A DNA stretch of 42,031 bases from Escherichia phage vB_EcoS-Ro145clw. Position 1 is the stretch's first letter, and each line of letters opens with the position of its first letter. The notes under the pieces are model-generated. The model searched no databases. It was not told where the DNA came from and worked only from the letters and a program-made list of their open reading frames with translations. The position numbers were made by a program, and so were the translations under genes. Positions 5,781 to 41,543 of this stretch are shown here, in pieces. The stretch lies in the sequence record MG852086.2; one strand, written 5' to 3'.

Positions 5781-6275
5781 CTATTTACCGTGGTTCTCGT
5801 GGAACCCCAAATCTCTTTCAGCAACTCTCCTCGCGGCAACTGCATCTAGTATCGTCTTAAAGCACCCGATATGTGTTTTTACGTTATTGTTGAATATCTG
5901 CGCGTACCACAACCTTTCTTTCGCGTTCCAGTAGACTCCGGTTACTCCTGATTTATTATTACGCTGTTTTGACATATTTTTATGGTTTTCCGCATTGGAC
6001 TTTTTAGCTAAGTTAAGCGGTCTATTGTTTATTCGGTCATGGTCTAGATGGTCTATTTGATCTGACGAGGTTAGCTTATTGTTAGGATTGTTTAAGTCCC
6101 AAGCTATACGGTGCGCCGCATGCCATTTACCCCGGAAAAATATCCTTCTATATCCGTCTCGCTGGACGGTACCTGCTTCCTCTCCAGCCTTAGCCCTCCC
6201 GGACCGGGTTACTCTGTTAAATATCCTTCCTGAAATTAAGTCGTATATGAAAAATTCATTCCAATCCATAATCAT
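5781..6275 (-). CDS. HNH homing endonuclease with AP2-type DNA-binding domain
   Basis: 164 aa; HNH core GKWHAAHRIAWDL...IDHLDHDRINNRPLNL; AP2-like SGVTGVYWNAKERLWYAQI; AT-rich; SD AGGAG. Confidence 0.8.
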   Translation of the reverse strand: MIMDWNEFFIYDLISGRIFNRVTRSGRAKAGEEAGTVQRDGYRRIFFRGKWHAAHRIAWDLNNPNNKLTSSDQIDHLDHDRINNRPLNLAKKSNAENHKNMSKQRNNKSGVTGVYWNAKERLWYAQIFNNNVKTHIGCFKTILDAVAARRVAERDLGFHENHGK

Positions 6276-6288
6276 CTCCTATTGTGAT

Positions 6289-6311
6289 AAGGCCCCGAAA
6301 GGGGCCTTTTT
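6289..6311 (+). terminator. second copy of the identical hairpin AAGGCCCCGAAAGGGGCCTT followed by T5 (plus-oriented terminator)
   Basis: 20/20 identity with 5760..5779; followed by TTTTT on the plus strand. Confidence 0.5.
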
Positions 6312-6312
6312 C

Positions 6313-6543
6313 TTACTCATCAATATTACTCCTGTACTCCCGTAACTTCTCCAGACTCTCAATTGCTTCCGCTAAGTCGGTTCCTGTGTCCTTGTGCCCC
6401 CGCAAGCCCATACACAATAGCTTCTTCAATGCGTGCTGTAACGCCGGGTCGCGGATGTCGAAGGCACGTAGCACGTCGTAAACGTCTACTGTCATAGTGC
6501 TGCCGTGAGTGTTTGTCATTGTGCGGTTGTATTTTGAAGTCAT
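6313..6543 (-). CDS. hypothetical protein (76 aa)
   Basis: SD GGGGAG upstream on the minus strand; preferred over the overlapping 6359..6550 frame. Confidence 0.4.
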   Translation of the reverse strand: MTSKYNRTMTNTHGSTMTVDVYDVLRAFDIRDPALQHALKKLLCMGLRGHKDTGTDLAEAIESLEKLREYRSNIDE

Positions 6544-6556
6544 AAATCAATCTCCC

Positions 6557-7027
6557 CTACTCATGGTTTTCATGAAAACCGTATTTACTCTCGGCGGCTT
6601 TACGCGCGGCAACCGCTACATCAAAATCGTCGTAAAGCCCTAAATGCACTTGTTTGTAGTTAACTTTTATAAACGCGCGCCACTTACCCGCGGCTTTGTG
6701 GAAACTTACACCTGTAGCCCCGGATTTATTTATCTTTCTCATAGTTTTATTTTTACTGTCCCCTGTATTGTCGGTGGCGCGTAGATTTTCTATTCTATTG
6801 TCTAGCCTGTTATGGTTTATGTGGTCTATTTGAGTTTTCCTGTCTAAGTCGCATTTATTATAAAGACACCATGCTATGCGGTGGACATACACTGTTTTAC
6901 CACCCATACCGCAGCACAGATAGCCTCTTACACCAACCGTACCAACCTCAGCACCAGTAGATATCCTGGTAACCTGCCCCGTCTCAGGGCAGTATTTAAA
7001 TTGTTTTGAAACATCAAGATACTTCAT
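6557..7027 (-). CDS. HNH homing endonuclease with AP2-type DNA-binding domain (paralog of 5781..6275)
   Basis: 156 aa; HNH core HRIAWCLYN...IDHINHNRLDNRIENL; AP2-like SGATGVSFHKAAGKWRAFI; shares C-terminal GFHENH with the other HNH. Confidence 0.8.
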   Translation of the reverse strand: MKYLDVSKQFKYCPETGQVTRISTGAEVGTVGVRGYLCCGMGGKTVYVHRIAWCLYNKCDLDRKTQIDHINHNRLDNRIENLRATDNTGDSKNKTMRKINKSGATGVSFHKAAGKWRAFIKVNYKQVHLGLYDDFDVAVAARKAAESKYGFHENHE

Positions 7028-8154
7028 CTTAGCATCTCCGGTGAGATTGAAAGCCTACCTACTTCCCCGAACTCTGAACTATAGGTTATGACATTAGCGG
7101 ACCTCTTAGACATCCACCCGCCGCGAGAAGCATATGCATCTTTCGCCGCGAGAGTGCGATGTTGTTCCACTACCATATTCCTACTTTCTACAATCTTTTG
7201 ATGGTGGAGATGCCCGACATGTGCGTAACTGTACTCGCTTTCGCCAAATGCTTTTCTGAACTTAGCTATCATAATGGGTTCGACCACCTCAAACCGGCAT
7301 TTATGCCCGTGTGTAAAGAACAGTGTCGTTTTACCGTGTTGCACCATCTTGTAAACATCCGGCGACGTATCGACGAACACACGCGGCTCATTGTCGTACA
7401 GCGTACTGAACATCTCAGCCAACCAAATCATTCCGCTTTCGTCGTGGTTCCCTTGCACGATAAGCAAGCGAACATTTTTATGCTTAACCAGCGCCATACC
7501 AACAACACGGCGTACCATACGAATCATGTAGCGGACTAGTTTCTGGTAGCGCGTGTCCGCATCAAGAACATGACCGCTCGCTGGCGTAACGGCATCCAGA
7601 CTATCGAAGTGTGCGAAGTCCCCGAGCAGATTAATGACTCCTGTTCCTGCATCTGGCGCTTTCTGGAATGCCGCATCGAACCATCGGGAGAACAGGTCTT
7701 CAGCAATCTTCATATCCCAGTCGTCGCCGCTCTCGTCGGCCCAGGCCAGCATGCCGAGATGGAAATCAGATACCGTGTAAAGATTGAGTAGTTTGTCGTC
7801 ACGTTTGGCTCGAGTCGCTTTAACAGGCGCAACTGGGGTAATCTCTGACTTCATGCCTTCAACCACGGCTTTCATCAACTCAACCTGACGTTCGGCATCG
7901 GTGTCGGTCTTAACCCATTGCAACTTAGTGTTGCCGAACTCGTCTACCAGTGACGACGTTCCTTTAATCTTGTAGCCGTCTGGCACAAGGTGACTAACAT
8001 CACGACCATGACCTACGCCTTTCTTCGCCAGCTTCGCTTTACGGATACGAATAACGCGGTCTGAGATGCCGTATTTACGGGCAATGTCGATATTCTTCAT
8101 CCCGACGTTCAATTCTTCCTGTAACTGTTCGTCGGTTATTTTCTTCTGGGCCAT
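7024..8154 (-). CDS. N-terminal HTH domain fused to calcineurin-like metallophosphoesterase
   Basis: 376 aa; HTH-like IDIARKYGISDRVIRIRKAKL; MPP motifs SDFHLG, GDFAHFD, QGNHDES, THGH, HVGHLHH in canonical order; SD GAGGAAG. Confidence 0.65.
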   Translation of the reverse strand: MAQKKITDEQLQEELNVGMKNIDIARKYGISDRVIRIRKAKLAKKGVGHGRDVSHLVPDGYKIKGTSSLVDEFGNTKLQWVKTDTDAERQVELMKAVVEGMKSEITPVAPVKATRAKRDDKLLNLYTVSDFHLGMLAWADESGDDWDMKIAEDLFSRWFDAAFQKAPDAGTGVINLLGDFAHFDSLDAVTPASGHVLDADTRYQKLVRYMIRMVRRVVGMALVKHKNVRLLIVQGNHDESGMIWLAEMFSTLYDNEPRVFVDTSPDVYKMVQHGKTTLFFTHGHKCRFEVVEPIMIAKFRKAFGESEYSYAHVGHLHHQKIVESRNMVVEQHRTLAAKDAYASRGGWMSKRSANVITYSSEFGEVGRLSISPEMLR

Positions 8155-12609: not shown

Positions 12610-12971
12610 ACATTAATTCTTATACTGGTCTTCCGTATGATTTTCGCCGCCGTAATTGCTGGCACCATGTGTGTAACGTTCGCGCGGACGCGGGGCTCCC
12701 CACGCCCGAGTTTAACGTCGCTTCGCCAACACAGATTAATGATGCCTTTGAAGAAGGCCATAAAGACACTAAAGGCCTCGTACACGTAGAAACTCCGCAA
12801 AACTTCGATGTCGTTCTGATGGCAACGCGACACAGAAACCGTGTAATCTGGCACGCTGGCGTATATTATGGTGGTATGGTCAGTCATTGCGAGCTAGCTA
12901 GTCGCCAGGTACGGTTAGACCGACTGGAAGACTTGCGCGAAACTTATGCGGAGATAGAATTTTGGCGCTGA
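12606..12971 (+). CDS. small NlpC/P60-like cysteine peptidase-domain tail protein (gpK-like, putative)
   Basis: 121 aa; ATGA overlap; conserved Cys (RRRNCWHHV) and downstream His (VIWHAGVYY, MVSHCE) spaced like NlpC/P60 catalytic residues. Confidence 0.45.
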   Translation: MNINSYTGLPYDFRRRNCWHHVCNVRADAGLPTPEFNVASPTQINDAFEEGHKDTKGLVHVETPQNFDVVLMATRHRNRVIWHAGVYYGGMVSHCELASRQVRLDRLEDLRETYAEIEFWR

Positions 12972-15517
12972 TATTACACTACACCCGTAACGAAGACGGT
13001 ACTTTCGACCGCAAACGGTACAACGTACCGCCGATGGAATACGTCGTTGCTAACATCCCTGACGGGGTGCCGGTACGTATTTACCGGGGCGAGATTGGCG
13101 AGGATACGGAAGTAACGGAAGATTTCGAAGCGCTGAAAGAAGACGACGTATTCCATATTATCGAAGGTGCTGGTGGCGGTGGCGGTTTTCTCGGAAAACT
13201 GCTTGACCCATTGGGTGTGCTTAAGTTTATCACTAAACTGATTTCCCCGTCGCAGAAAACGCCTAAAACTAGTTTAGCTAACCAGCAGGCGGAGTCGCCA
13301 AACAACAACCTGACGGACCGAAACAATAAACCTCGCCCGTATGAGCGGTCGTATGATATTTGCGGCAGGGTACAGACTATCCCTAATGACCTCATGACTA
13401 CCTATAAAATATTCGATGAATCCGGCCGAATTATCGAGTATGGATACTACGACGCCGGTCGAGGTTACCTGGATATCAAAGCAGAAGACATTACTGACGG
13501 CGATACTAAAGTACAGGAGATTACAGGTACATCTGTCGCGGTGTATGCGCCGTTTACATCGCCTAACAATACAAATACTCCTCAGCTTCTGGTGGGGGAA
13601 CCTATCAATCAGAATCTTTATATAACTATCGCTTCTAATGAAGTAGACGGAGCCGTTCTTAAAGCCCGTAACGATATAAGGGTTAACCCTAGCGACACGG
13701 GCCGTGTGAGATATGACTCTGCTACAAAAATTGGATACCTGTATGATGGCACGGGGGATTCTGGCTTCGCGGAAATATTATCTGTTGGCGATACCGCGTC
13801 GTTCAATAACTTTGACGTTCCGGACGTAACAAATACCAACGGCAACTTTCGTGTTCTTTATGTCGATAACTTCGAGCTGCGGGTCGACACCGGCGGCGCG
13901 TCTAACTGGGCTGCTTTAGGTTCAACCACCTATTCACTTTCCCCGAGAAGTGACACGTGGGTGGGCCCTGTGAATACGTATGAAAGAACATTAACCGACT
14001 GGACCACCTTAAACCGCCTGGAAGTTGAACGAGTAGTTGCTAACATTGCCGCCGCGAATGGCATGTACAAGGACAACGGCAGTAAATTGCGCACCGCTGT
14101 AACTGTAGAGCTTCAATATCAGCTACTAGATGAATCCGGGGCACCGTACGGAAGCATTTACTCGAAACAGGCCACTATATCCGGGCGGTCCGCAGATTAC
14201 ACCGGGGTCACCATTTACGCCGACCTGCCCGTGCGGTCGAAAGTCAGGGTACGCGCCCGGCGTGTTACCAACCTGGACCTCGATTTCGAGGGCACCGTGG
14301 TAGACGAGGTTTCCTACATCAACCTTTACGGGCAGGTCCGCGACACTACGCCGCATTACGGCAACCGTACTACTGTACACTCTGCACGTAAGCAGACGCC
14401 GCGGGCCGCAGAGATTAAGCAGCCGCAGCTACGTATGGTCGCGACGGAGATGGTGTACAAATACCTCGGCAACGGCGTATTTGACGCGGTTATGACACCT
14501 AATACCCAAGCCGTTCAGTCGTTAATACGCCTGGCGCGGGACCCAGTAGTAGGAAACCTCAATCTCACCACGGCTAACATGGATAAGTTGTTGGCTACGC
14601 AAGCAGAGATTGAAAATTATTTCGGAAATGCTGAGGCTGGGCAGTTCTGCTACACATTCGATGATTACAAAACGACTATGCAGGACATCATCAGCACAAT
14701 AGCTGATGCTATTTTCTGCACGCCATATCGTAAAGGGCAAGACATATTACTGGATTTCGAGCGCCCTCGTATGGGGCCGGAGATGGTATTCACCCACCGC
14801 AGTAAAACAACGGCATCCGAGAGGTGGACTAGGACATTCAACGACGCTCAGGTATACGATAGTCTTAAGTTCTCCTACATCGACCCAGATACCAACGTAA
14901 AAGAGACTATTAGCATTCCAGCCGAAGGTGGTGTTAATACCGAAACGTATGACTCCAAGGGTATACGTAATTATCGCCAGGCGTACTGGGCGGCGTACCG
15001 CCGCTACCAGAAAAACCTGTTGAAGAAGGTAACGGTATCATTCACGGCGACAGAAGAAGGGATTTTTGCAATGCCTGGGCGTGCGGTAAGTGTGGTAAAA
15101 GGTTCGCGTATGGCTCCACAAGACGGCTATGTAATCGCCGTTAACGGGCTTACGCTTACTCTTTCTCGGCCGGTCGCGTTTACTCCTGGGGATGACCACT
15201 CACTGATTCTTAAGAAGCGAGACGGGGGAGTTCAAAGTGTTGCCGTTGTGCCTGGAAGCCACGACCGTGAAGTGGTTATGCTATCCGCGCCGCAGGAGGC
15301 AATTTACACGGGGAATAGCGCACTAAAAACTGAGTTTTCATTCGGCAACGAAGCAAGGCATAATGCTCAGATGATTCTTGTTTCTACAGTTGACCCCGGA
15401 GATGACAGAACAGTTAAGATTACCGGGATTAACTATGAAGCAGATTTCTATAAATACGACGGCGTCGCGCCTTTCGGTCGCGGTTTCTCCGACGGATTCA
15501 GCAACGGTTTTAGTTAA
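12962..15517 (+). CDS. tail tip / host-specificity protein with gpI-like N-terminal region
   Basis: 851 aa, TTG start with SD GGAGA; N-terminus (VRIYRGEIG...GAGGGGGFLGKLL...) resembles lambda gpI-type assembly domain; large C-terminal body; position before tailspike. Confidence 0.55.
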   Translation: MALILHYTRNEDGTFDRKRYNVPPMEYVVANIPDGVPVRIYRGEIGEDTEVTEDFEALKEDDVFHIIEGAGGGGGFLGKLLDPLGVLKFITKLISPSQKTPKTSLANQQAESPNNNLTDRNNKPRPYERSYDICGRVQTIPNDLMTTYKIFDESGRIIEYGYYDAGRGYLDIKAEDITDGDTKVQEITGTSVAVYAPFTSPNNTNTPQLLVGEPINQNLYITIASNEVDGAVLKARNDIRVNPSDTGRVRYDSATKIGYLYDGTGDSGFAEILSVGDTASFNNFDVPDVTNTNGNFRVLYVDNFELRVDTGGASNWAALGSTTYSLSPRSDTWVGPVNTYERTLTDWTTLNRLEVERVVANIAAANGMYKDNGSKLRTAVTVELQYQLLDESGAPYGSIYSKQATISGRSADYTGVTIYADLPVRSKVRVRARRVTNLDLDFEGTVVDEVSYINLYGQVRDTTPHYGNRTTVHSARKQTPRAAEIKQPQLRMVATEMVYKYLGNGVFDAVMTPNTQAVQSLIRLARDPVVGNLNLTTANMDKLLATQAEIENYFGNAEAGQFCYTFDDYKTTMQDIISTIADAIFCTPYRKGQDILLDFERPRMGPEMVFTHRSKTTASERWTRTFNDAQVYDSLKFSYIDPDTNVKETISIPAEGGVNTETYDSKGIRNYRQAYWAAYRRYQKNLLKKVTVSFTATEEGIFAMPGRAVSVVKGSRMAPQDGYVIAVNGLTLTLSRPVAFTPGDDHSLILKKRDGGVQSVAVVPGSHDREVVMLSAPQEAIYTGNSALKTEFSFGNEARHNAQMILVSTVDPGDDRTVKITGINYEADFYKYDGVAPFGRGFSDGFSNGFS

Positions 15518-25083: not shown

Positions 25084-25351
25084 TCCGTACCTCCCACTGG
25101 TCAATTAAATGCCGCGTCTGGTGCTGGCAGTGCATAGCCCACCCATACATCGACTCGAAGACATAAAAGTCAGGTTTGGCGAAGGTCGTTCGCTTAATCT
25201 GCGACACGCGGCGACCTATATCTTTAGGGCGCGGTACTTTGCCTAAGTACGCCATCTCTTCCATCCGGTGCGCACCTGACGGCGCACGCAACAGCCACAA
25301 CGCCTCTGTGTTATCCCGCCTGTCGATGGCGCGGTAGAGTTGGTAAATCAT
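25055..25351 (-). CDS. hypothetical protein (98 aa)
   Basis: SD GAGGT 9 nt upstream; overlaps exonuclease start by about 29 nt. Confidence 0.4.
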   Translation of the reverse strand: MIYQLYRAIDRRDNTEALWLLRAPSGAHRMEEMAYLGKVPRPKDIGRRVSQIKRTTFAKPDFYVFESMYGWAMHCQHQTRHLIDQWEVRNDFKRTRRQ

Positions 25352-33372: not shown

Positions 33373-33437
33373 CACCTGAGACTAATCCGACGATACTTAA
33401 ATCACCTCCTGTTTCATCCCTCTGCTCTCCAGTTTTA

Positions 33438-33469
33438 TCCCGGCCCTGACCCAGCCGGGATTTTTTTTT
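33438..33469 (+). terminator. strong intrinsic terminator after endolysin
   Basis: TCCCGGC CCTGACCCA GCCGGGA followed by nine T. Confidence 0.7.
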
Positions 33470-33491
33470 ATCTATTTTCTGTAATGACTAG

Positions 33492-33520
33492 TTGACTATT
33501 ACCTACGACCCTATTATATT
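33492..33520 (+). promoter_or_regulatory. sigma70-like promoter TTGACT-N17-TATATT
   Basis: TTGACTATTACCTACGACCCTATTATATT upstream of the small-gene string starting at 33554. Confidence 0.45.
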
Positions 33521-33553
33521 TACTTCATCGACAACGAGAACGGAGTAGAGAAG

Positions 33554-33631
33554 ATGAGTAACTTCCATAATGAGCATGTGATGCAGTTCTATCGTCATAA
33601 TCTGAAAACTAAAGGAGTGTTTGGGAAATGA
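33554..33631 (+). CDS. tiny hypothetical ORF (25 aa)
   Basis: SD GGAG upstream; stop overlaps next start (ATGA); very short so weakly supported. Confidence 0.25.
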
Positions 33632-33777
33632 AAATCACAGATATCGAAGCATTCAAAGACGCACAACTGATGGCACGCATCGCCGTCAATAACCTGAGCA
33701 GCAATATCCCGGCTGACGCGTTCTGGGCCGCCGCGATGCGGGTACTGAAAGCAGCTTATGTAGGAGAGAAGAAATGA
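33628..33777 (+). CDS. small hypothetical protein (49 aa)
   Basis: SD AAGGAG; ATGA coupling on both sides; antisense to the rejected minus ORF 33686..34192. Confidence 0.35.
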
Positions 33778-33944
33778 GCGAAGAAATTAGAGAACGAAGT
33801 AAAGTACTTCTACCGTTGTGGGTGGGATATAAAGTCGGCCACACCCCGTTCCCAACACGTGAGGAACTGATGAAACGTAACAGTTTCCCGGGGCCGGACA
33901 AGAACAAGTATCTCAATCGCATGTGGGGAGAGCGTAAAGAATGA
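33774..33944 (+). CDS. small hypothetical protein (56 aa)
   Basis: ATGA coupling on both sides. Confidence 0.35.
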   Translation: MSEEIRERSKVLLPLWVGYKVGHTPFPTREELMKRNSFPGPDKNKYLNRMWGERKE

Positions 33945-34186
33945 CTGACCGTGAATACGAAAAGATGATGGTAGAGGCGGTTAACGGCGGCGTAGACATC
34001 GGTCACGTGATGCACGTCCTGAATACTAAAATCGCGGTAGCGGAGCAAATGGTTGAGTCGCTTTATGAGACCCGCCGCGAACTGATTAACCGCTTCAACC
34101 TGAACAAGTGCGAACATGAGTTCGACTACAATCCGAAGGATATGTGCGGGCAGTGTATTAAATGCGGGGTACAGCGTCATGCCTAA
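33941..34186 (+). CDS. small zinc-ribbon-like protein (81 aa)
   Basis: CEHEF ... CGQCIKCG motif; coupled starts. Confidence 0.45.
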   Translation: MTDREYEKMMVEAVNGGVDIGHVMHVLNTKIAVAEQMVESLYETRRELINRFNLNKCEHEFDYNPKDMCGQCIKCGVQRHA

Positions 34187-34457
34187 AATCACAATCGCAT
34201 CACTCGAGCGCCGTATTATGGTGCTTGAGTCAGAGAAACAGACGTTAGGCGGGCAACTGTCAATTAACGGTGAGTTTCAACTGGAGGCGTTTAAGCAGTT
34301 ACTCACATTAACGGCGGACATAGAAAATATTGTCGCCCTTCTAGAGTCAGGGGAATGGGGCGAGCATTGCGCAGAATCGGAGTTAGGCCAACGGCTTGAG
34401 TCGGAGATTACTAACATGCTTAGTGGTCTTGGGTGGTCGCCAGATGAAAGCACCTGA
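34179..34457 (+). CDS. hypothetical protein (92 aa)
   Basis: ATG 34179 overlapping upstream gene end; helical prediction by eye. Confidence 0.4.
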   Translation: MPKITIASLERRIMVLESEKQTLGGQLSINGEFQLEAFKQLLTLTADIENIVALLESGEWGEHCAESELGQRLESEITNMLSGLGWSPDEST

Positions 34458-34626
34458 GCCAGTAGTTATCGATGGCGTCCTGTGGAAACCTTACTCGGTT
34501 AACCACATCGACGCCGACGGGAAGAAGTTTAGCTTCTACATTTTTGCAATTAGCCGTGAGCACGCCGCTTGTGTGGTTGACGATATACGAGAAACGGCGT
34601 GGCTTGGTGATGAGATAGTGGGGTGA
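34444..34626 (+). CDS. hypothetical protein (60 aa)
   Basis: ATG 34444 in frame with ORF-track ORF 34396..34626. Confidence 0.4.
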   Translation: MKAPEPVVIDGVLWKPYSVNHIDADGKKFSFYIFAISREHAACVVDDIRETAWLGDEIVG

Positions 34627-34630
34627 GAGT

Positions 34631-34714
34631 ATGAGTCTTGGAGTGGTTATTGGTCTGGTCGGTCTTAGTTACTTCATTGGGTTATTGGTTGGATTTCTGT
34701 GGGGTAGATACTAA
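34631..34714 (+). CDS. tiny hydrophobic peptide (27 aa)
   Basis: SD GGGGTGAGAG upstream; stop overlaps next start (TAATG); single hydrophobic helix. Confidence 0.25.
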   Translation: MSLGVVIGLVGLSYFIGLLVGFLWGRY

Positions 34715-34995
34715 TGGCACGTACCGTTGCCGCGAGATTCACTGATATTGAATCTGCGATAGAAGAAGCTGTTTATAATAAATTCTGCAACCCCTCTGCT
34801 ACGCACAACTACGGAGTTATTGTTAAATACGGCAAGTTTGAAATTAGGAGAGTTCGCACCGGTCGCCCGCACGAGTTTTTATGGACAACAGAAAGCCTAG
34901 TCCCGCGGTGCCACATTTACACAAGCGGCGCACATACGATTTTTGTAGACCTTAACAAGAAAGATATTACCGTCACTAAAGGAGAGACAAATTGA
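34714..34995 (+). CDS. hypothetical protein (93 aa)
   Basis: ORF with coupled start; no motif. Confidence 0.4.
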   Translation: MARTVAARFTDIESAIEEAVYNKFCNPSATHNYGVIVKYGKFEIRRVRTGRPHEFLWTTESLVPRCHIYTSGAHTIFVDLNKKDITVTKGETN

Positions 34996-35228
34996 TTACC
35001 AGCATTCCTAAACTGATTGAAGAGTACGGAAGTATGTCGGAGACCTGCCGACAAACCGGTATCTGCGAAATGACGATTGCCAAGTACAGCAAAGACGTGA
35101 ACTGCGAGCGCCACGTAATTTATAACAACCGTCTGATGACGCACGTTAAGACAAGCCCGGTGTTATTCACGCGCCGCGGTATCACTAAAACTGAGCAACG
35201 TATTGCTAAAGAGGAGAGTGGGGGATGA
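34992..35228 (+). CDS. hypothetical protein, possible HTH (78 aa)
   Basis: TTG start with SD AAGGAGAGACA; SMSETCRQTGICEMTIAKYS is HTH-like. Confidence 0.4.
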   Translation: MITSIPKLIEEYGSMSETCRQTGICEMTIAKYSKDVNCERHVIYNNRLMTHVKTSPVLFTRRGITKTEQRIAKEESGG

Positions 35229-35407
35229 TTGATATTTTGAGGGCTACAAATGCTGCCGGTGACCTGGTGTTTTGGTTGGCCTTTCTCGGTGTGCTGATAA
35301 AACAACCGACTTTGTTTAACGTTATTCCTCGCTATCTGTGGTGGCCTATGTTTTTAGGCATGGGAGTATCAGGAGTGGCTGGTATCCTTTTGTGGTTTTT
35401 CAAATGA
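35225..35407 (+). CDS. small membrane protein (60 aa, two hydrophobic segments)
   Basis: ATGA-type coupling; hydrophobic. Confidence 0.4.
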   Translation: MIDILRATNAAGDLVFWLAFLGVLIKQPTLFNVIPRYLWWPMFLGMGVSGVAGILLWFFK

Positions 35408-35510
35408 GGCTACTAATCATCCCGAACGCCTGGGCTATCGCTGTAGCTAACGACCATTACGGCGGCGACGGTAAAAGAGCACCACGACACGGCCTATATA
35501 ACTGATACAA

Positions 35511-35530
35511 GCCCTCTACGGAGGGCTTTT
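35511..35530 (+). terminator. intrinsic terminator closing the early plus-strand block
   Basis: GCCCTC TACG GAGGGC followed by TTTT. Confidence 0.6.
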
Positions 35531-35531
35531 C

Positions 35532-35561
35532 TGTACATCCCGCCTAATCCCCTTATATAAT
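35532..35561 (+). promoter_or_regulatory. possible promoter TGTACA-N18-TATAAT upstream of TerS
   Basis: Perfect -10 TATAAT at 35556..35561; weak -35. Confidence 0.3.
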
Positions 35562-35626
35562 CCCTTTAGACGCGTAGGGCGCGTCTGGTGCGCTCTGATG
35601 GTCAGACGCATATGCAAGGGGATTAT

Positions 35627-41047: not shown

Positions 41048-41434
41048 ATGAATCTTAAAGCAACTGTCATGGCAGGAGCATGTTTCATCATCCTGGTTTA
41101 CGCACACGGCATCTACCAGTATCGCAGCGGCTGGAACGAGGGCCGGGCGAATCTCATTTCGCAGCAACAGCAGAAAGCACAAGCTGAGTTAGCGAAGAAA
41201 ACACAACGGCAGCAGCAGGATGAATCAAAGGCCGCGGCCGCTGACAACGAAGGCAAGACGAAATCAGAGGTGATTACCCGTGAAGTCGTTAAGTACATTA
41301 AAACGCCTGGTCGCAGCGTGTGCACTTTCGACCCTGAGCGCGTGCAGCTCAAGTCCCGCGCCGTCGCAAACGCCAATTCCATCCCCGGATACGACGATGA
41401 TGCAGCCGCCGTGCAAACTGGCACCGCCAAGTAG
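41048..41434 (+). CDS. i-spanin (Rz-like, putative)
   Basis: 128 aa; SD AAAGGGGA; N-terminal transmembrane segment then Gln/Lys-rich coiled-coil-like region; contains overlapping lipoprotein ORF. Confidence 0.5.
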   Translation: MNLKATVMAGACFIILVYAHGIYQYRSGWNEGRANLISQQQQKAQAELAKKTQRQQQDESKAAAADNEGKTKSEVITREVVKYIKTPGRSVCTFDPERVQLKSRAVANANSIPGYDDDAAAVQTGTAK

Positions 41435-41543
41435 CGACGCTGACGAGGATTTGGCTGTCGACGTTCAGAACGCCGAATGCGCACGGCAATTGCGCCTGAA
41501 AGTGTTCATGTTGCAGGATTACGTGAGGAATATTCTGGAATAG
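41280..41543 (+). CDS. o-spanin (Rz1-like lipoprotein, putative), overlapping Rz in the +1 frame
   Basis: GTG start with SD GAGGTG; signal peptide ending in lipobox LSAC; Pro-rich mature region; extends past the Rz stop. Confidence 0.45.
   Translation: MKSLSTLKRLVAACALSTLSACSSSPAPSQTPIPSPDTTMMQPPCKLAPPSSDADEDLAVDVQNAECARQLRLKVFMLQDYVRNILE

What the first reader, a model, noticed from the sequence alone, without database searches (positions are those of the whole stretch)
33554..35407. String of translationally coupled mini-genes after the lysis cassette
From the promoter at 33492 to the terminator at 35511 there are at least nine short ORFs (25 to 93 aa), almost all joined by ATGA, TGATG or TAATG overlaps, several with Cys pairs or hydrophobic helices. 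The ORF track instead offers a 168 aa minus-strand ORF here, which I consider an antisense artefact. Such dense arrays of tiny early proteins are where host-takeover and anti-defence factors are usually found.
Basis: partly seen in the sequence, partly recalled or inferred. Interest (0 to 1): 0.45.

Follow-up and report, generated by a model that had tools for sequence, protein, structure and literature searches.

The report
Phage mini-gene operon led by Stp
The string of tiny genes is real: it is the swappable accessory-gene operon of a known E. coli phage group, and its first, unannotated 25-codon gene is a near-copy of the phage T4 anti-restriction peptide Stp, so this is a useful annotation gain but not a new kind of system.

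Summary
The window is a rotated copy of Escherichia phage vB_EcoS-Ro145c2YLVW (Kagunavirus, 99.8% identity). Between a terminator after the endolysin gene and a terminator before the small terminase gene lies one transcription unit. It has a near-consensus sigma-70 promoter (33492), a conserved leader and 11 plus-strand mini-genes (25-93 aa, 33554-35505), ten of them joined by start/stop overlaps or a 4-nt gap. RefSeq annotates eight. All 11 show purifying selection in their own frame across about 40 related loci. The 168-aa minus-strand ORF is broken in 39 of 43 relatives and is an artefact.

The first cistron is a T4 Stp homologue (23/25 residues, Pfam PF08133 E 2e-18). Its DNA homology to T-even phages stops at the ORF borders and its GC content is low. 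T4 Stp inhibits type IC restriction and triggers the PrrC anticodon nuclease, yet this phage has no recognisable tRNA-repair genes.

The operon is a mosaic: five core genes plus 43 exchangeable families. The slot behind the promoter holds Stp, a PHROG "anti-restriction protein", seven unknown families, or nothing. Other members are NinH-like, DUF2737 or unknown. A relative's "Gp2-like RNAP inhibitor" label is not supported. Early timing is unproven.

The parts
33437..33469 (+). Intrinsic terminator closing the lysis cassette (8-bp GC-rich stem, 9-nt loop, U8 run)
   Evidence: RNA fold -13.8 kcal/mol, z -3.4. It is the only inverted repeat in 33400-33640. The sequence is conserved in relatives.
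33492..33520 (+). Sigma-70-type promoter TTGACT-17 nt-TATATT
   Evidence: 10/12 match. It is the only plus-strand site in the 42-kb genome with at least 5/6 matches in both hexamers. The -35 hexamer is invariant and the -10 nearly so in 39 distinct related sequences, while spacer positions vary.
33521..33553 (+). Conserved 5' leader with Shine-Dalgarno GGAG 8 nt before the first ATG
   Evidence: It is nearly invariant across Kagunavirus and Jerseyvirus loci whichever first gene follows.
33554..33631 (+). o1: Stp homologue, 25 aa ([25 protein letters not shown]); not annotated in RefSeq NC_073322
   Evidence: Pfam PF08133 E 2.2e-18, 65.7 bits against a cutoff of 25; PHROG 6763. It matches T4 Stp at 23 of 25 residues. 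Nucleotide identity to T-even stp is 88.7% and confined to the ORF. pN/pS is 0.02. GC is 36% against 50.6% for the genome.
33628..33777 (+). o2: 49-aa core protein, function unknown (gp12)
   Evidence: PHROG 2180. Present in 42 of 42 loci. pN/pS 0.32, the weakest frame signal in the array.
33774..33944 (+). o3: 56-aa DUF2737 protein (gp13), core
   Evidence: Pfam PF10930 E 8e-10, 38.9 bits against a cutoff of 25. pN/pS 0.30.
33941..34186 (+). o4: 81-aa protein with a conserved N-terminal 56 aa and a variable Cys-rich tail (C-x13-C-x2-C-x2-C) (gp14)
   Evidence: PHROG 1402. Relatives match only the N-terminal 69% at high identity. pN/pS 0.07. No PDB relative found.
34179..34457 (+). o5: 92-aa acidic protein with a conserved N-terminal coiled-coil-like half and a variable C-terminal half (gp15; RefSeq starts it at 34218)
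   Evidence: PHROG 9023/10200 match the N-terminal half only. Relatives begin MPKITIASLE at the 34179-equivalent ATG. pN/pS 0.18.
34444..34626 (+). o6: 60-aa acidic beta-beta-beta-alpha protein, core in Kagunavirus and absent from the Jerseyvirus loci (gp16)
34631..34714 (+). o7: 27-aa single-helix hydrophobic peptide, not annotated in RefSeq, accessory
   Evidence: GRAVY 1.63. pN/pS 0.16. A homologous stretch is present in 16 loci, and a same-length ORF is intact in 11.
34714..34995 (+). o8: 93-aa protein, function unknown (gp17); the long form of a family whose 56-aa short form occupies this place in most relatives
34992..35228 (+). o9: 78-aa NinH-like helix-turn-helix protein (gp18), core, TTG start
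   Evidence: BLASTP to lambda NinH gives 35% identity over 51 aa, E 3e-10. Pfam PF06322 scores 26.2 bits, below the 29.8 cutoff. The start codon is ATG in 38 relatives and TTG in 5 at the same position.
35225..35407 (+). o10: 60-aa two-helix membrane protein (gp19), accessory
   Evidence: PHROG 10956. GRAVY 1.07. Present in about 15 loci with pN/pS 0.28.
   Evidence: PHROG 32259 full length, E 8e-18. A same-length ORF with an ATG start is intact in 31 of 33 loci. pN/pS 0.11.
35509..35536 (+). Intrinsic terminator closing the array (8-bp stem, tetraloop, UUUUCUGU)
   Evidence: RNA fold centroid -14.8 kcal/mol, z -3.6.
33686..34192 (-). 168-aa minus-strand ORF: not a gene (an antisense shadow of o2-o4)
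   Evidence: A stop-free stretch of 150 aa or more is kept in only 4 of 43 loci, with a median of 96 aa. pN/pS is 0.55 with no third-position excess, while the overlapping plus-strand frames show clear constraint.

Best explanation
This is the accessory-gene operon of a Kagunavirus (Guernseyvirinae). It is one self-contained transcription unit: a terminator, a near-consensus sigma-70 promoter, a conserved leader with a Shine-Dalgarno site, 11 translationally coupled mini-genes and a second terminator. It sits between the lysis cassette and the small terminase gene. Host RNA polymerase needs no phage factor to start here. One ribosome-loading site plus the stop/start overlaps would carry translation down the chain.

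The operon is built from five conserved genes (o2, DUF2737 o3, the o4 N-domain, o6 and NinH-like o9). Between them lie slots where small genes are exchanged among relatives.

In this phage the first slot holds a 25-codon copy of the T4 anti-restriction peptide Stp. It was most likely acquired from an AT-rich T-even phage as a bare ORF. By analogy with T4 Stp, the peptide should bind type IC restriction complexes (EcoprrI, EcoR124I), block DNA cleavage and so protect the unmodified phage genome. In hosts that also carry PrrC it should unleash the tRNA-Lys anticodon nuclease. This phage has no recognisable polynucleotide kinase or RNA ligase, so that would abort the infection.

Shown here: the gene structure, coding status, conservation pattern, Stp homology and mosaicism. 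Inferred: Stp activity, the direction of transfer, translational coupling and expression timing.
For: Identity of the phage: (99.8% to NC_073322).

Coding: pN/pS is 0.02-0.32 in-frame for all 11 ORFs, with a third-position excess. The junctions are listed.

Transcription unit: promoter and terminators.

Stp: Pfam and PHROG matches. It matches T4 Stp at 23 of 25 residues, with residues 1-14 and 16-24 identical. The review PMC3014915 states that the N-proximal 18 residues carry function and that suppressor mutations cluster at residues 4-14. It also states that deleting 8 C-terminal codons only moderately lowers activity, and that Stp inhibits EcoprrI and EcoR124I but not EcoKI or EcoBI.

Transfer: DNA homology to T-even stp is 88.7% over 71 nt and ends at the ATG and at codon 24. 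The ORF's GC is 36%, within the lowest 3% of 78-nt windows.

Mosaicism: core and accessory genes are mapped in 42 loci, with 43 non-core families and 9 alternatives in the first slot. One of those alternatives is PHROG 14587 'anti-restriction protein', E 1.5e-20.

No tRNA repair: nothing is annotated, there are no Pfam hits among the large unknown ORFs, and there is no tblastn hit to a phage Pnk.
Against: No experiment bears on this phage's peptide. It differs from T4 Stp at N15H, inside the functional 18 residues, and at R25K, and it lacks Q26.

Stp is present in only about 8 of roughly 116 non-Salmonella phage records that match the region, and in about 5 of 42 metagenomic loci. It is therefore dispensable.

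Seven of the 11 proteins have no assignable function, so 'accessory operon' describes architecture rather than mechanism.

The o2 frame signal is the weakest (pN/pS 0.32 against 0.47 in another frame).

Expression timing is not established. RNA-seq of Kagunavirus K1B4 classed the NinH homologue as 'middle'.
Confidence: 0.75

Rival explanations
1. The array is a nin-region-like set of small regulators and DNA- or RNA-binding helpers for the phage's own development. It is expressed in mid-infection, and Stp is an incidental passenger rather than the defining function.
For: Two core genes belong to lambdoid nin-region families: NinH-like and DUF2737. Relatives carry ASCH/DUF3850 RNA-binding and MarR-like genes in the slots. 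The NinH homologue was classed 'middle' in the K1B4 RNA-seq. Stp is absent from most relatives.
Against: The first slot behind the promoter holds Stp or a PHROG 'anti-restriction' family in separate lineages. Turnover is extreme, with 43 families in 42 loci, which is typical of conflict genes. The array lies between the lysis and terminase genes, not between the replication genes and a late regulator.
Confidence: 0.3
2. o6 is a T7 Gp2-type inhibitor of host RNA polymerase, as annotated in the related phage fEg-Eco06. That would make the operon a host-transcription shut-off module.
For: A related record labels its o6 homologue 'RNA polymerase inhibitor, similar to 2LMC_A'. The AF2 model is a small acidic beta-beta-beta-alpha protein that superposes on Gp2 with rmsd 1.8 A over 40 residues.
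Confidence: 0.08
3. The Stp-like ORF is an untranslated or decaying relic of a past transfer.
For: It is unannotated in most records. In L018 its ATG is lost, and in L022 it is fused to o2. The phage lacks the repair genes that accompany Stp in T4 and in T1-like phages.
Against: Across the four unique aligned stp sequences (Kagunavirus loci plus T4), summed pairwise differences from the window fall 2, 0 and 19 at codon positions 1, 2 and 3 (12 of 13 variable columns are third positions), and pN/pS is 0.02. The ORF sits 8 nt after a conserved GGAG, and its stop overlaps the ATG of o2. The same 25-aa form with H15 and K25 occurs in the unrelated phage Bas95.
Confidence: 0.08
4. The 168-aa minus-strand ORF (33686-34192) is the real gene, and the overlapping plus-strand mini-ORFs are artefacts.
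For: It is the longest ORF in the interval. Its third codon positions coincide with those of o3, which gives an intermediate pN/pS of 0.55.
Against: It is interrupted in 39 of 43 relatives. The overlapping o2, o3 and o4 are each constrained in their own three different frames and match PHROG or Pfam families.
Confidence: 0.02

Closest known systems
Phage T4 Stp (gene stp; Pfam PF08133 'anticodon nuclease activator')
   Same: The length is nearly the same (25 against 26 aa). Identity is 23 of 25 residues, including all of residues 4-14 where loss-of-function mutations cluster. It is likewise a tiny cistron whose boundaries overlap its neighbours.
   Different: The host genome is a 42-kb siphovirus with unmodified DNA and no Pnk or RNA ligase, not a 169-kb T-even phage. 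It is the first gene behind a sigma-70 promoter, whereas in T4 it lies between ndd and ac. It carries N15H and R25K and lacks Q26. Its activity is untested.
Stp-like peptides of T1-like siphophages (TLS, Stevie; Drexlerviridae such as BubbaBully)
   Same: Stp outside the T-even phages, in small siphoviruses, embedded in arrays of small genes, has already been noted in the literature (PMC4319613).
   Different: Those peptides diverge after residue 11 (BubbaBully: [31 protein letters not shown]). They are accompanied by a polynucleotide kinase. The Kagunavirus copy is near-identical to T4's and has no Pnk.
Lambdoid nin region (lambda ninA-ninI; P22 nin genes)
   Same: It is a run of small, overlapping, largely dispensable ORFs, and it shares two families: NinH (35% identity to lambda NinH) and DUF2737. 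Lambda NinH is a Fis-like DNA-binding and DNA-bending dimer (PMC7166090).
   Different: It is located between the endolysin and terminase genes with its own promoter and terminators, not between the replication genes and the late antiterminator. No NinB, NinG or NinI homologues were found.
Phage accessory regions / anti-defence gene hotspots (for example the T7 early region with Ocr; accessory regions of Silas et al., bioRxiv 10.1101/2023.04.06.535777)
   Same: Flanks and regulatory signals are conserved while small genes turn over quickly. Known anti-restriction genes sit beside unknown ones.
   Different: Here the exchange unit is a single cistron swapped exactly at start/stop junctions within one translationally coupled operon. 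Only one member per genome has a recognisable anti-defence identity.
T7 Gp2 (host RNA polymerase inhibitor)
   Same: o6 is small and acidic, with a three-stranded sheet packed against one helix.
   Different: There is no sequence relationship, the fold match is non-specific, and the C-terminal arginines are missing.

Membership tests
Stp / Pfam PF08133 (Nuclease_act) | Full-length match to the family profile above the curated cutoff | tested here: met
   65.7 bits against a cutoff of 25, E 2.2e-18, profile positions 1-25 of 26. PHROG 6763 E 1e-19.
Stp / Pfam PF08133 (Nuclease_act) | Peptide of about 26 residues with the conserved N-proximal 18 residues, especially residues 4-14 | tested here: met
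   25 aa; 17 of 18 N-proximal residues are identical to T4 (N15H), and residues 4-14 are all identical. The criteria come from PMC3014915.
Stp / Pfam PF08133 (Nuclease_act) | Inhibits type IC restriction (EcoprrI, EcoR124I) but not type IA | not testable with these tools
   This needs plating or in vitro assays. The property is reported for T4 Stp in PMC3014915.
Stp / Pfam PF08133 (Nuclease_act) | Activates the latent PrrC anticodon nuclease | not testable with these tools
   This needs a tRNA-Lys cleavage assay in prr+ cells.
T4-type Stp / Pnk / Rnl1 counter-defence system | tRNA healing and sealing enzymes (polynucleotide kinase, RNA ligase 1) encoded in the same genome | tested here: not met
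   None is annotated in the 71 features of NC_073322. Pfam scans of the large unknown ORFs give nuclease, SSB, HNH, SNF2 helicase and a weak metallophosphoesterase only. tblastn with a Drexlerviridae Pnk gives a best E of 0.056. An RNA ligase was not searched with a query of its own.
NinH (Pfam PF06322) | Match to the family profile above the curated cutoff | tested here: not met
   26.2 bits against a cutoff of 29.8, E 7.5e-6, profile positions 8-56 of 60.
NinH (Pfam PF06322) | Direct similarity to lambda NinH over the helix-turn-helix region | tested here: met
   BLASTP gives 35% identity and 55% positives over 51 aa, E 3e-10. I therefore call o9 NinH-like rather than a certified member.
NinH (Pfam PF06322) | Fis-like homodimer that binds and bends DNA | not testable with these tools
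   The property is described for lambda NinH in PMC7166090.
DUF2737 (Pfam PF10930) | Match above the curated cutoff | tested here: met
   38.9 bits against a cutoff of 25, E 8.3e-10. The family has no known function.
T7 Gp2 RNA polymerase inhibitors | Sequence relationship to Gp2 | tested here: not met
   BLASTP E 0.16 over 20 residues. There is no Gp2 among PDB sequence hits and no Pfam hit.
T7 Gp2 RNA polymerase inhibitors | Specific structural match to the Gp2 fold | tested here: inconclusive
T7 Gp2 RNA polymerase inhibitors | C-terminal arginines (Arg56, Arg58 in T7 Gp2, from my own knowledge) that contact the beta-prime jaw | tested here: not met
   The o6 sequence has no Arg after residue 49, and its last 6 residues are modelled as disordered. 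The correspondence of positions is uncertain.
Acr-Aca-type self-repressed anti-defence operon | Inverted-repeat operator at the promoter for the operon's own HTH protein | tested here: not met
   The only inverted repeat in 33400-33640 is the upstream terminator.

The most novel reading that the evidence does not exclude
The position directly behind the conserved promoter and leader may be a dedicated, exchangeable anti-restriction slot. If so, the seven uncharacterised families that replace Stp there in relatives (41-70 aa; clusters c26, c32, c48, c70, c88, c94 and c106) would be new peptide-sized inhibitors of restriction or other first-line defences. A second implication follows from Stp circulating as a bare 78-nt ORF among unrelated E. 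coli phages that lack tRNA repair (Kagunavirus, Bas95). In that case PrrC would be a general trap for Stp-carrying phages rather than a T4-specific device.
Probability: 0.3. Interest if true: 0.6.

Novelty: new member of a known kind. Interest (0 to 1): 0.35.

Why it matters
The practical gain is in annotation. Three conserved mini-genes (25, 27 and 33 aa) are missing from the RefSeq record, and one of them is a recognisable anti-restriction peptide.

Kagunaviruses are candidate therapeutic and synthetic-biology chassis phages, and they are reported as highly sensitive to restriction-modification (bioRxiv 10.1101/2024.09.12.612763). It therefore helps host-range prediction and engineering to know that some carry Stp and that one defined slot accepts alternative small genes.

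The pairing of Stp with no tRNA repair gives a clean test of the 'double-edged' Stp model outside T4.

Tried and rejected

2. An Aca-like self-repression design for NinH-like o9. There is no operator-like inverted repeat at the promoter.

3. Spanins or other lysis functions hidden among the membrane mini-proteins o7 and o10. Neither has a lipobox or any Cys. The record annotates spanins elsewhere, and a terminator separates the array from the endolysin gene.

5. PDB sequence searches for o4, o8 and o9 and NCBIfam for nine of the proteins found nothing significant.

7. A degenerate DNA pattern for Stp in IMG/VR returned 13 stretches. The two roughly 50-kb contigs turned out to be T-even fragments with ndd upstream, so among non-T-even contigs only Kagunavirus contigs matched at that stringency.

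8. ORF tiling as stand-alone evidence is only weakly above simulated sequences.

9. The K1B4 RNA-seq paper holds no per-gene expression table, so the timing of the array could not be read out beyond 'NinH = middle'.

10. No held paper mentions Stp together with Kagunavirus or Guernseyvirinae.
Full report
WHAT THE WINDOW IS. The interval 33400-35600 is 99.8% identical to Escherichia phage vB_EcoS-Ro145c2YLVW (NC_073322; Guernseyvirinae, Kagunavirus). Parts of it recur in 362 phage records, mostly Salmonella and Escherichia phages of that subfamily. The window is that genome rotated, with one 114-nt difference in a tail gene. RefSeq annotates eight 'hypothetical protein' genes on the plus strand in this interval. 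They lie between the endolysin gene and the small terminase gene.

I count 11 plus-strand ORFs of 25-93 aa from 33554 to 35505. Ten junctions link them: five ATGA overlaps, one TTGA, one TAATG, overlaps of 8 and 14 nt, and one 4-nt gap. Tiling by ORFs is weak evidence on its own. Sequences simulated with the same dinucleotide make-up are tiled to 1354 +/- 154 of 1952 nt, against 1703 observed, and 2 of 1000 simulations reach that value.

The real test is comparative. I fetched 50 related loci from IMG/VR through the small terminase. In about 40 of them the region is present. Each of the 11 ORFs has its lowest pN/pS in its own frame (0.02-0.32, against mostly above 1 in the other frames). Substitutions pile up at codon position 3. 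This includes the three ORFs that RefSeq does not annotate: o1 (25 aa), o7 (27 aa) and o11 (33 aa; a same-length ORF is intact in 31 of 33 loci and it matches PHROG 32259). The start of o5 at 34179, rather than RefSeq's 34218, and the TTG start of o9 are supported by relatives.

The 168-aa minus-strand ORF is broken in 39 of 43 relatives, where the median stop-free stretch is 96 aa. It shows no frame-specific constraint.

A SELF-CONTAINED TRANSCRIPTION UNIT. Upstream, a hairpin followed by a U8 run (33437-33469) closes the lysis cassette. Downstream, a hairpin followed by UUUUCUGU (35509-35536) closes the array. Both fold far better than shuffled controls. The promoter TTGACT-17-TATATT at 33492 is the only plus-strand site in the genome with at least 5 of 6 matches in both hexamers. 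The three other such sites are on the minus strand in the replication cluster. In 39 distinct related sequences the -35 hexamer is invariant and the -10 nearly so, while spacer positions vary. The 33-nt leader with GGAG is nearly invariant whichever gene comes first. That pattern is what a working promoter and ribosome-loading site would give. Function itself is inferred, not shown.

WHAT THE GENES ARE. The unannotated first cistron is the clear result. [25 protein letters not shown] matches Pfam PF08133, the T4 Stp family, over its full length (65.7 bits against a cutoff of 25, E 2e-18) and PHROG 6763. It is identical to T4 Stp ([26 protein letters not shown]) at 23 of 25 positions.

According to the review PMC3014915, T4 Stp is necessary and sufficient to activate the latent PrrC anticodon nuclease. 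It also relieves restriction by the type IC enzymes EcoprrI and EcoR124I, but not by the type IA enzymes EcoKI and EcoBI. Its function resides in the N-proximal 18 residues, with loss-of-function mutations clustering at residues 4-14. Removing eight C-terminal codons only moderately lowers activity. Here residues 1-14 and 16-24 are identical, and the changes are N15H, R25K and loss of Q26.

At the DNA level the copy is 88.7% identical to T-even stp over 71 nt. The similarity starts at the ATG and ends at codon 24, and the flanks are unrelated. The ORF has 36% GC in a 50.6% GC genome. This fits acquisition from an AT-rich T-even phage, but the direction of transfer is an inference.

The other members are less informative. 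o3 is DUF2737. o9 is NinH-like: 35% identity to lambda NinH with E 3e-10, but below the Pfam cutoff. Lambda NinH is a Fis-like DNA-binding protein (PMC7166090). o4 has a conserved N-terminal domain and a variable four-Cys tail. o5 is acidic, with a conserved N-terminal half and a variable C-terminal half. o7 and o10 are membrane peptides. o2, o6, o8 and o11 match only PHROGs of unknown function.

THE OPERON IS A MOSAIC. Gene-order maps of 42 loci show five core genes (o2, o3, the o4 N-domain, o9, and o6 within Kagunavirus). Between them are slots filled by 43 different small-gene families. The slot directly behind the leader holds Stp in about 5 loci, or one of eight other families, or nothing. 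One of those families (77 aa, very acidic) matches PHROG 14587 'anti-restriction protein' (E 1.5e-20). Its homologues carry that label in T1-like and lambdoid phages, but the label is an annotation and not a tested function. Swaps occur exactly at the start codon after the conserved leader.

Among public phage genomes, Stp at this place occurs in about eight Guernseyvirinae phages: Ro145c2YLVW, hz69, PDP21P8, K1ind2, K1ind3, G AB-2017, RP180 and ZCEC5. The first seven show the full-length match, and ZCEC5 matches over 76% of the query. It was not among the Salmonella phage records listed.

HOW IT MOST LIKELY WORKS. Host RNA polymerase starts at the strong promoter without phage help. Ribosomes load at the leader, and the overlapping stops and starts pass them down the chain. 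The Stp peptide then blocks type IC restriction of the unmodified incoming genome. Only the sequence features are shown; each of these steps is inferred by analogy.

One consequence can be tested. T4, and the T1-like phages that carry Stp-like peptides, also encode polynucleotide kinase (PMC4319613). This phage has no recognisable Pnk or RNA ligase. On a prr+ host its own Stp should therefore trigger an abortive infection that it cannot repair.

TIMING. 'Early' is plausible but unproven. An anti-restriction factor must act early, and the promoter needs no activator. In T4 itself Stp is delayed-early. The only Kagunavirus time course placed the NinH homologue in a 'middle' class that holds 42 of 57 genes, with the first samples at 5, 15 and 30 min.

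HOW NEW IS IT. Stp, its family and its presence in some small siphoviruses are known. Arrays of exchangeable small accessory genes are a known phage feature. The region is already annotated as hypothetical genes. Three things are new here. The Stp gene is recognised in Kagunavirus, where records leave it unannotated or unnamed. It is a near-identical bare-ORF transfer from T-even phages into a genome without tRNA repair. And a single promoter-proximal slot alternates between Stp and other small genes. No held paper links Stp with this phage group. I rate it a new member of a known kind, of moderate interest.

Noticed in passing
window 13213-13285 (within ORF 12962-15517): Relative to NC_073322 the window lacks 114 nt at a short repeat (record about 25214-25256). 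The window has one continuous 851-aa ORF where the record annotates gp49 plus the tail-fibre gene gp50.
   Followed up: partly
window 5781-8154, minus strand: A minus-strand island sits inside the plus-strand structural module. It has two HNH_3 endonuclease ORFs and a 376-aa ORF with a weak metallophosphoesterase hit (25.6 bits, below the cutoff). There is no PDB or NCBIfam match. A healing-type phosphoesterase would be relevant to the Stp/PrrC question, but nothing supports that yet.
   Followed up: partly
L022:226-450 and L018 (about 242-334 nt after the promoter): In L022 a one-base difference fuses Stp in frame to o2, giving a 74-aa ORF. In L018 Stp has lost its ATG, can only start at a GTG five codons upstream, and follows another first-slot gene.
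   Followed up: partly
L070:1510-1590 (Escherichia phage HelliStehle_Bas95, PQ850607): An unannotated 25-aa Stp ([25 protein letters not shown]) lies between two annotated genes of a 56-kb phage that is not placed in Guernseyvirinae. It shares H15 and the K25 end with the window's copy.
   Followed up: partly
window 33941-34063 and 34992-35228: PHROG 268 (119 aa) matches the N-terminus of o4 with profile positions 1-41 and o9 with positions 44-117. The two may be halves of a protein that is fused in other phages.
   Followed up: no
window 25956, 23685, 20109 (minus strand): Three near-consensus sigma-70 promoters (TTGACA or TTGACG, 17-18 nt, TATAGT) lie in the minus-strand replication gene cluster. 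Apart from 33492 they are the only such sites in the genome.
   Followed up: no
window 41048-41543: The record annotates the spanin pair here, inside the head-gene region and about 8.7 kb downstream of the holin-endolysin cassette (7.7 kb past its end). The lysis genes are therefore split between two places.
   Followed up: no
window 33521-33553: The 5' leader of the operon is more conserved than most of the coding sequence that follows it, across both Kagunavirus and Jerseyvirus loci. This hints at a role beyond the Shine-Dalgarno site.
   Followed up: no
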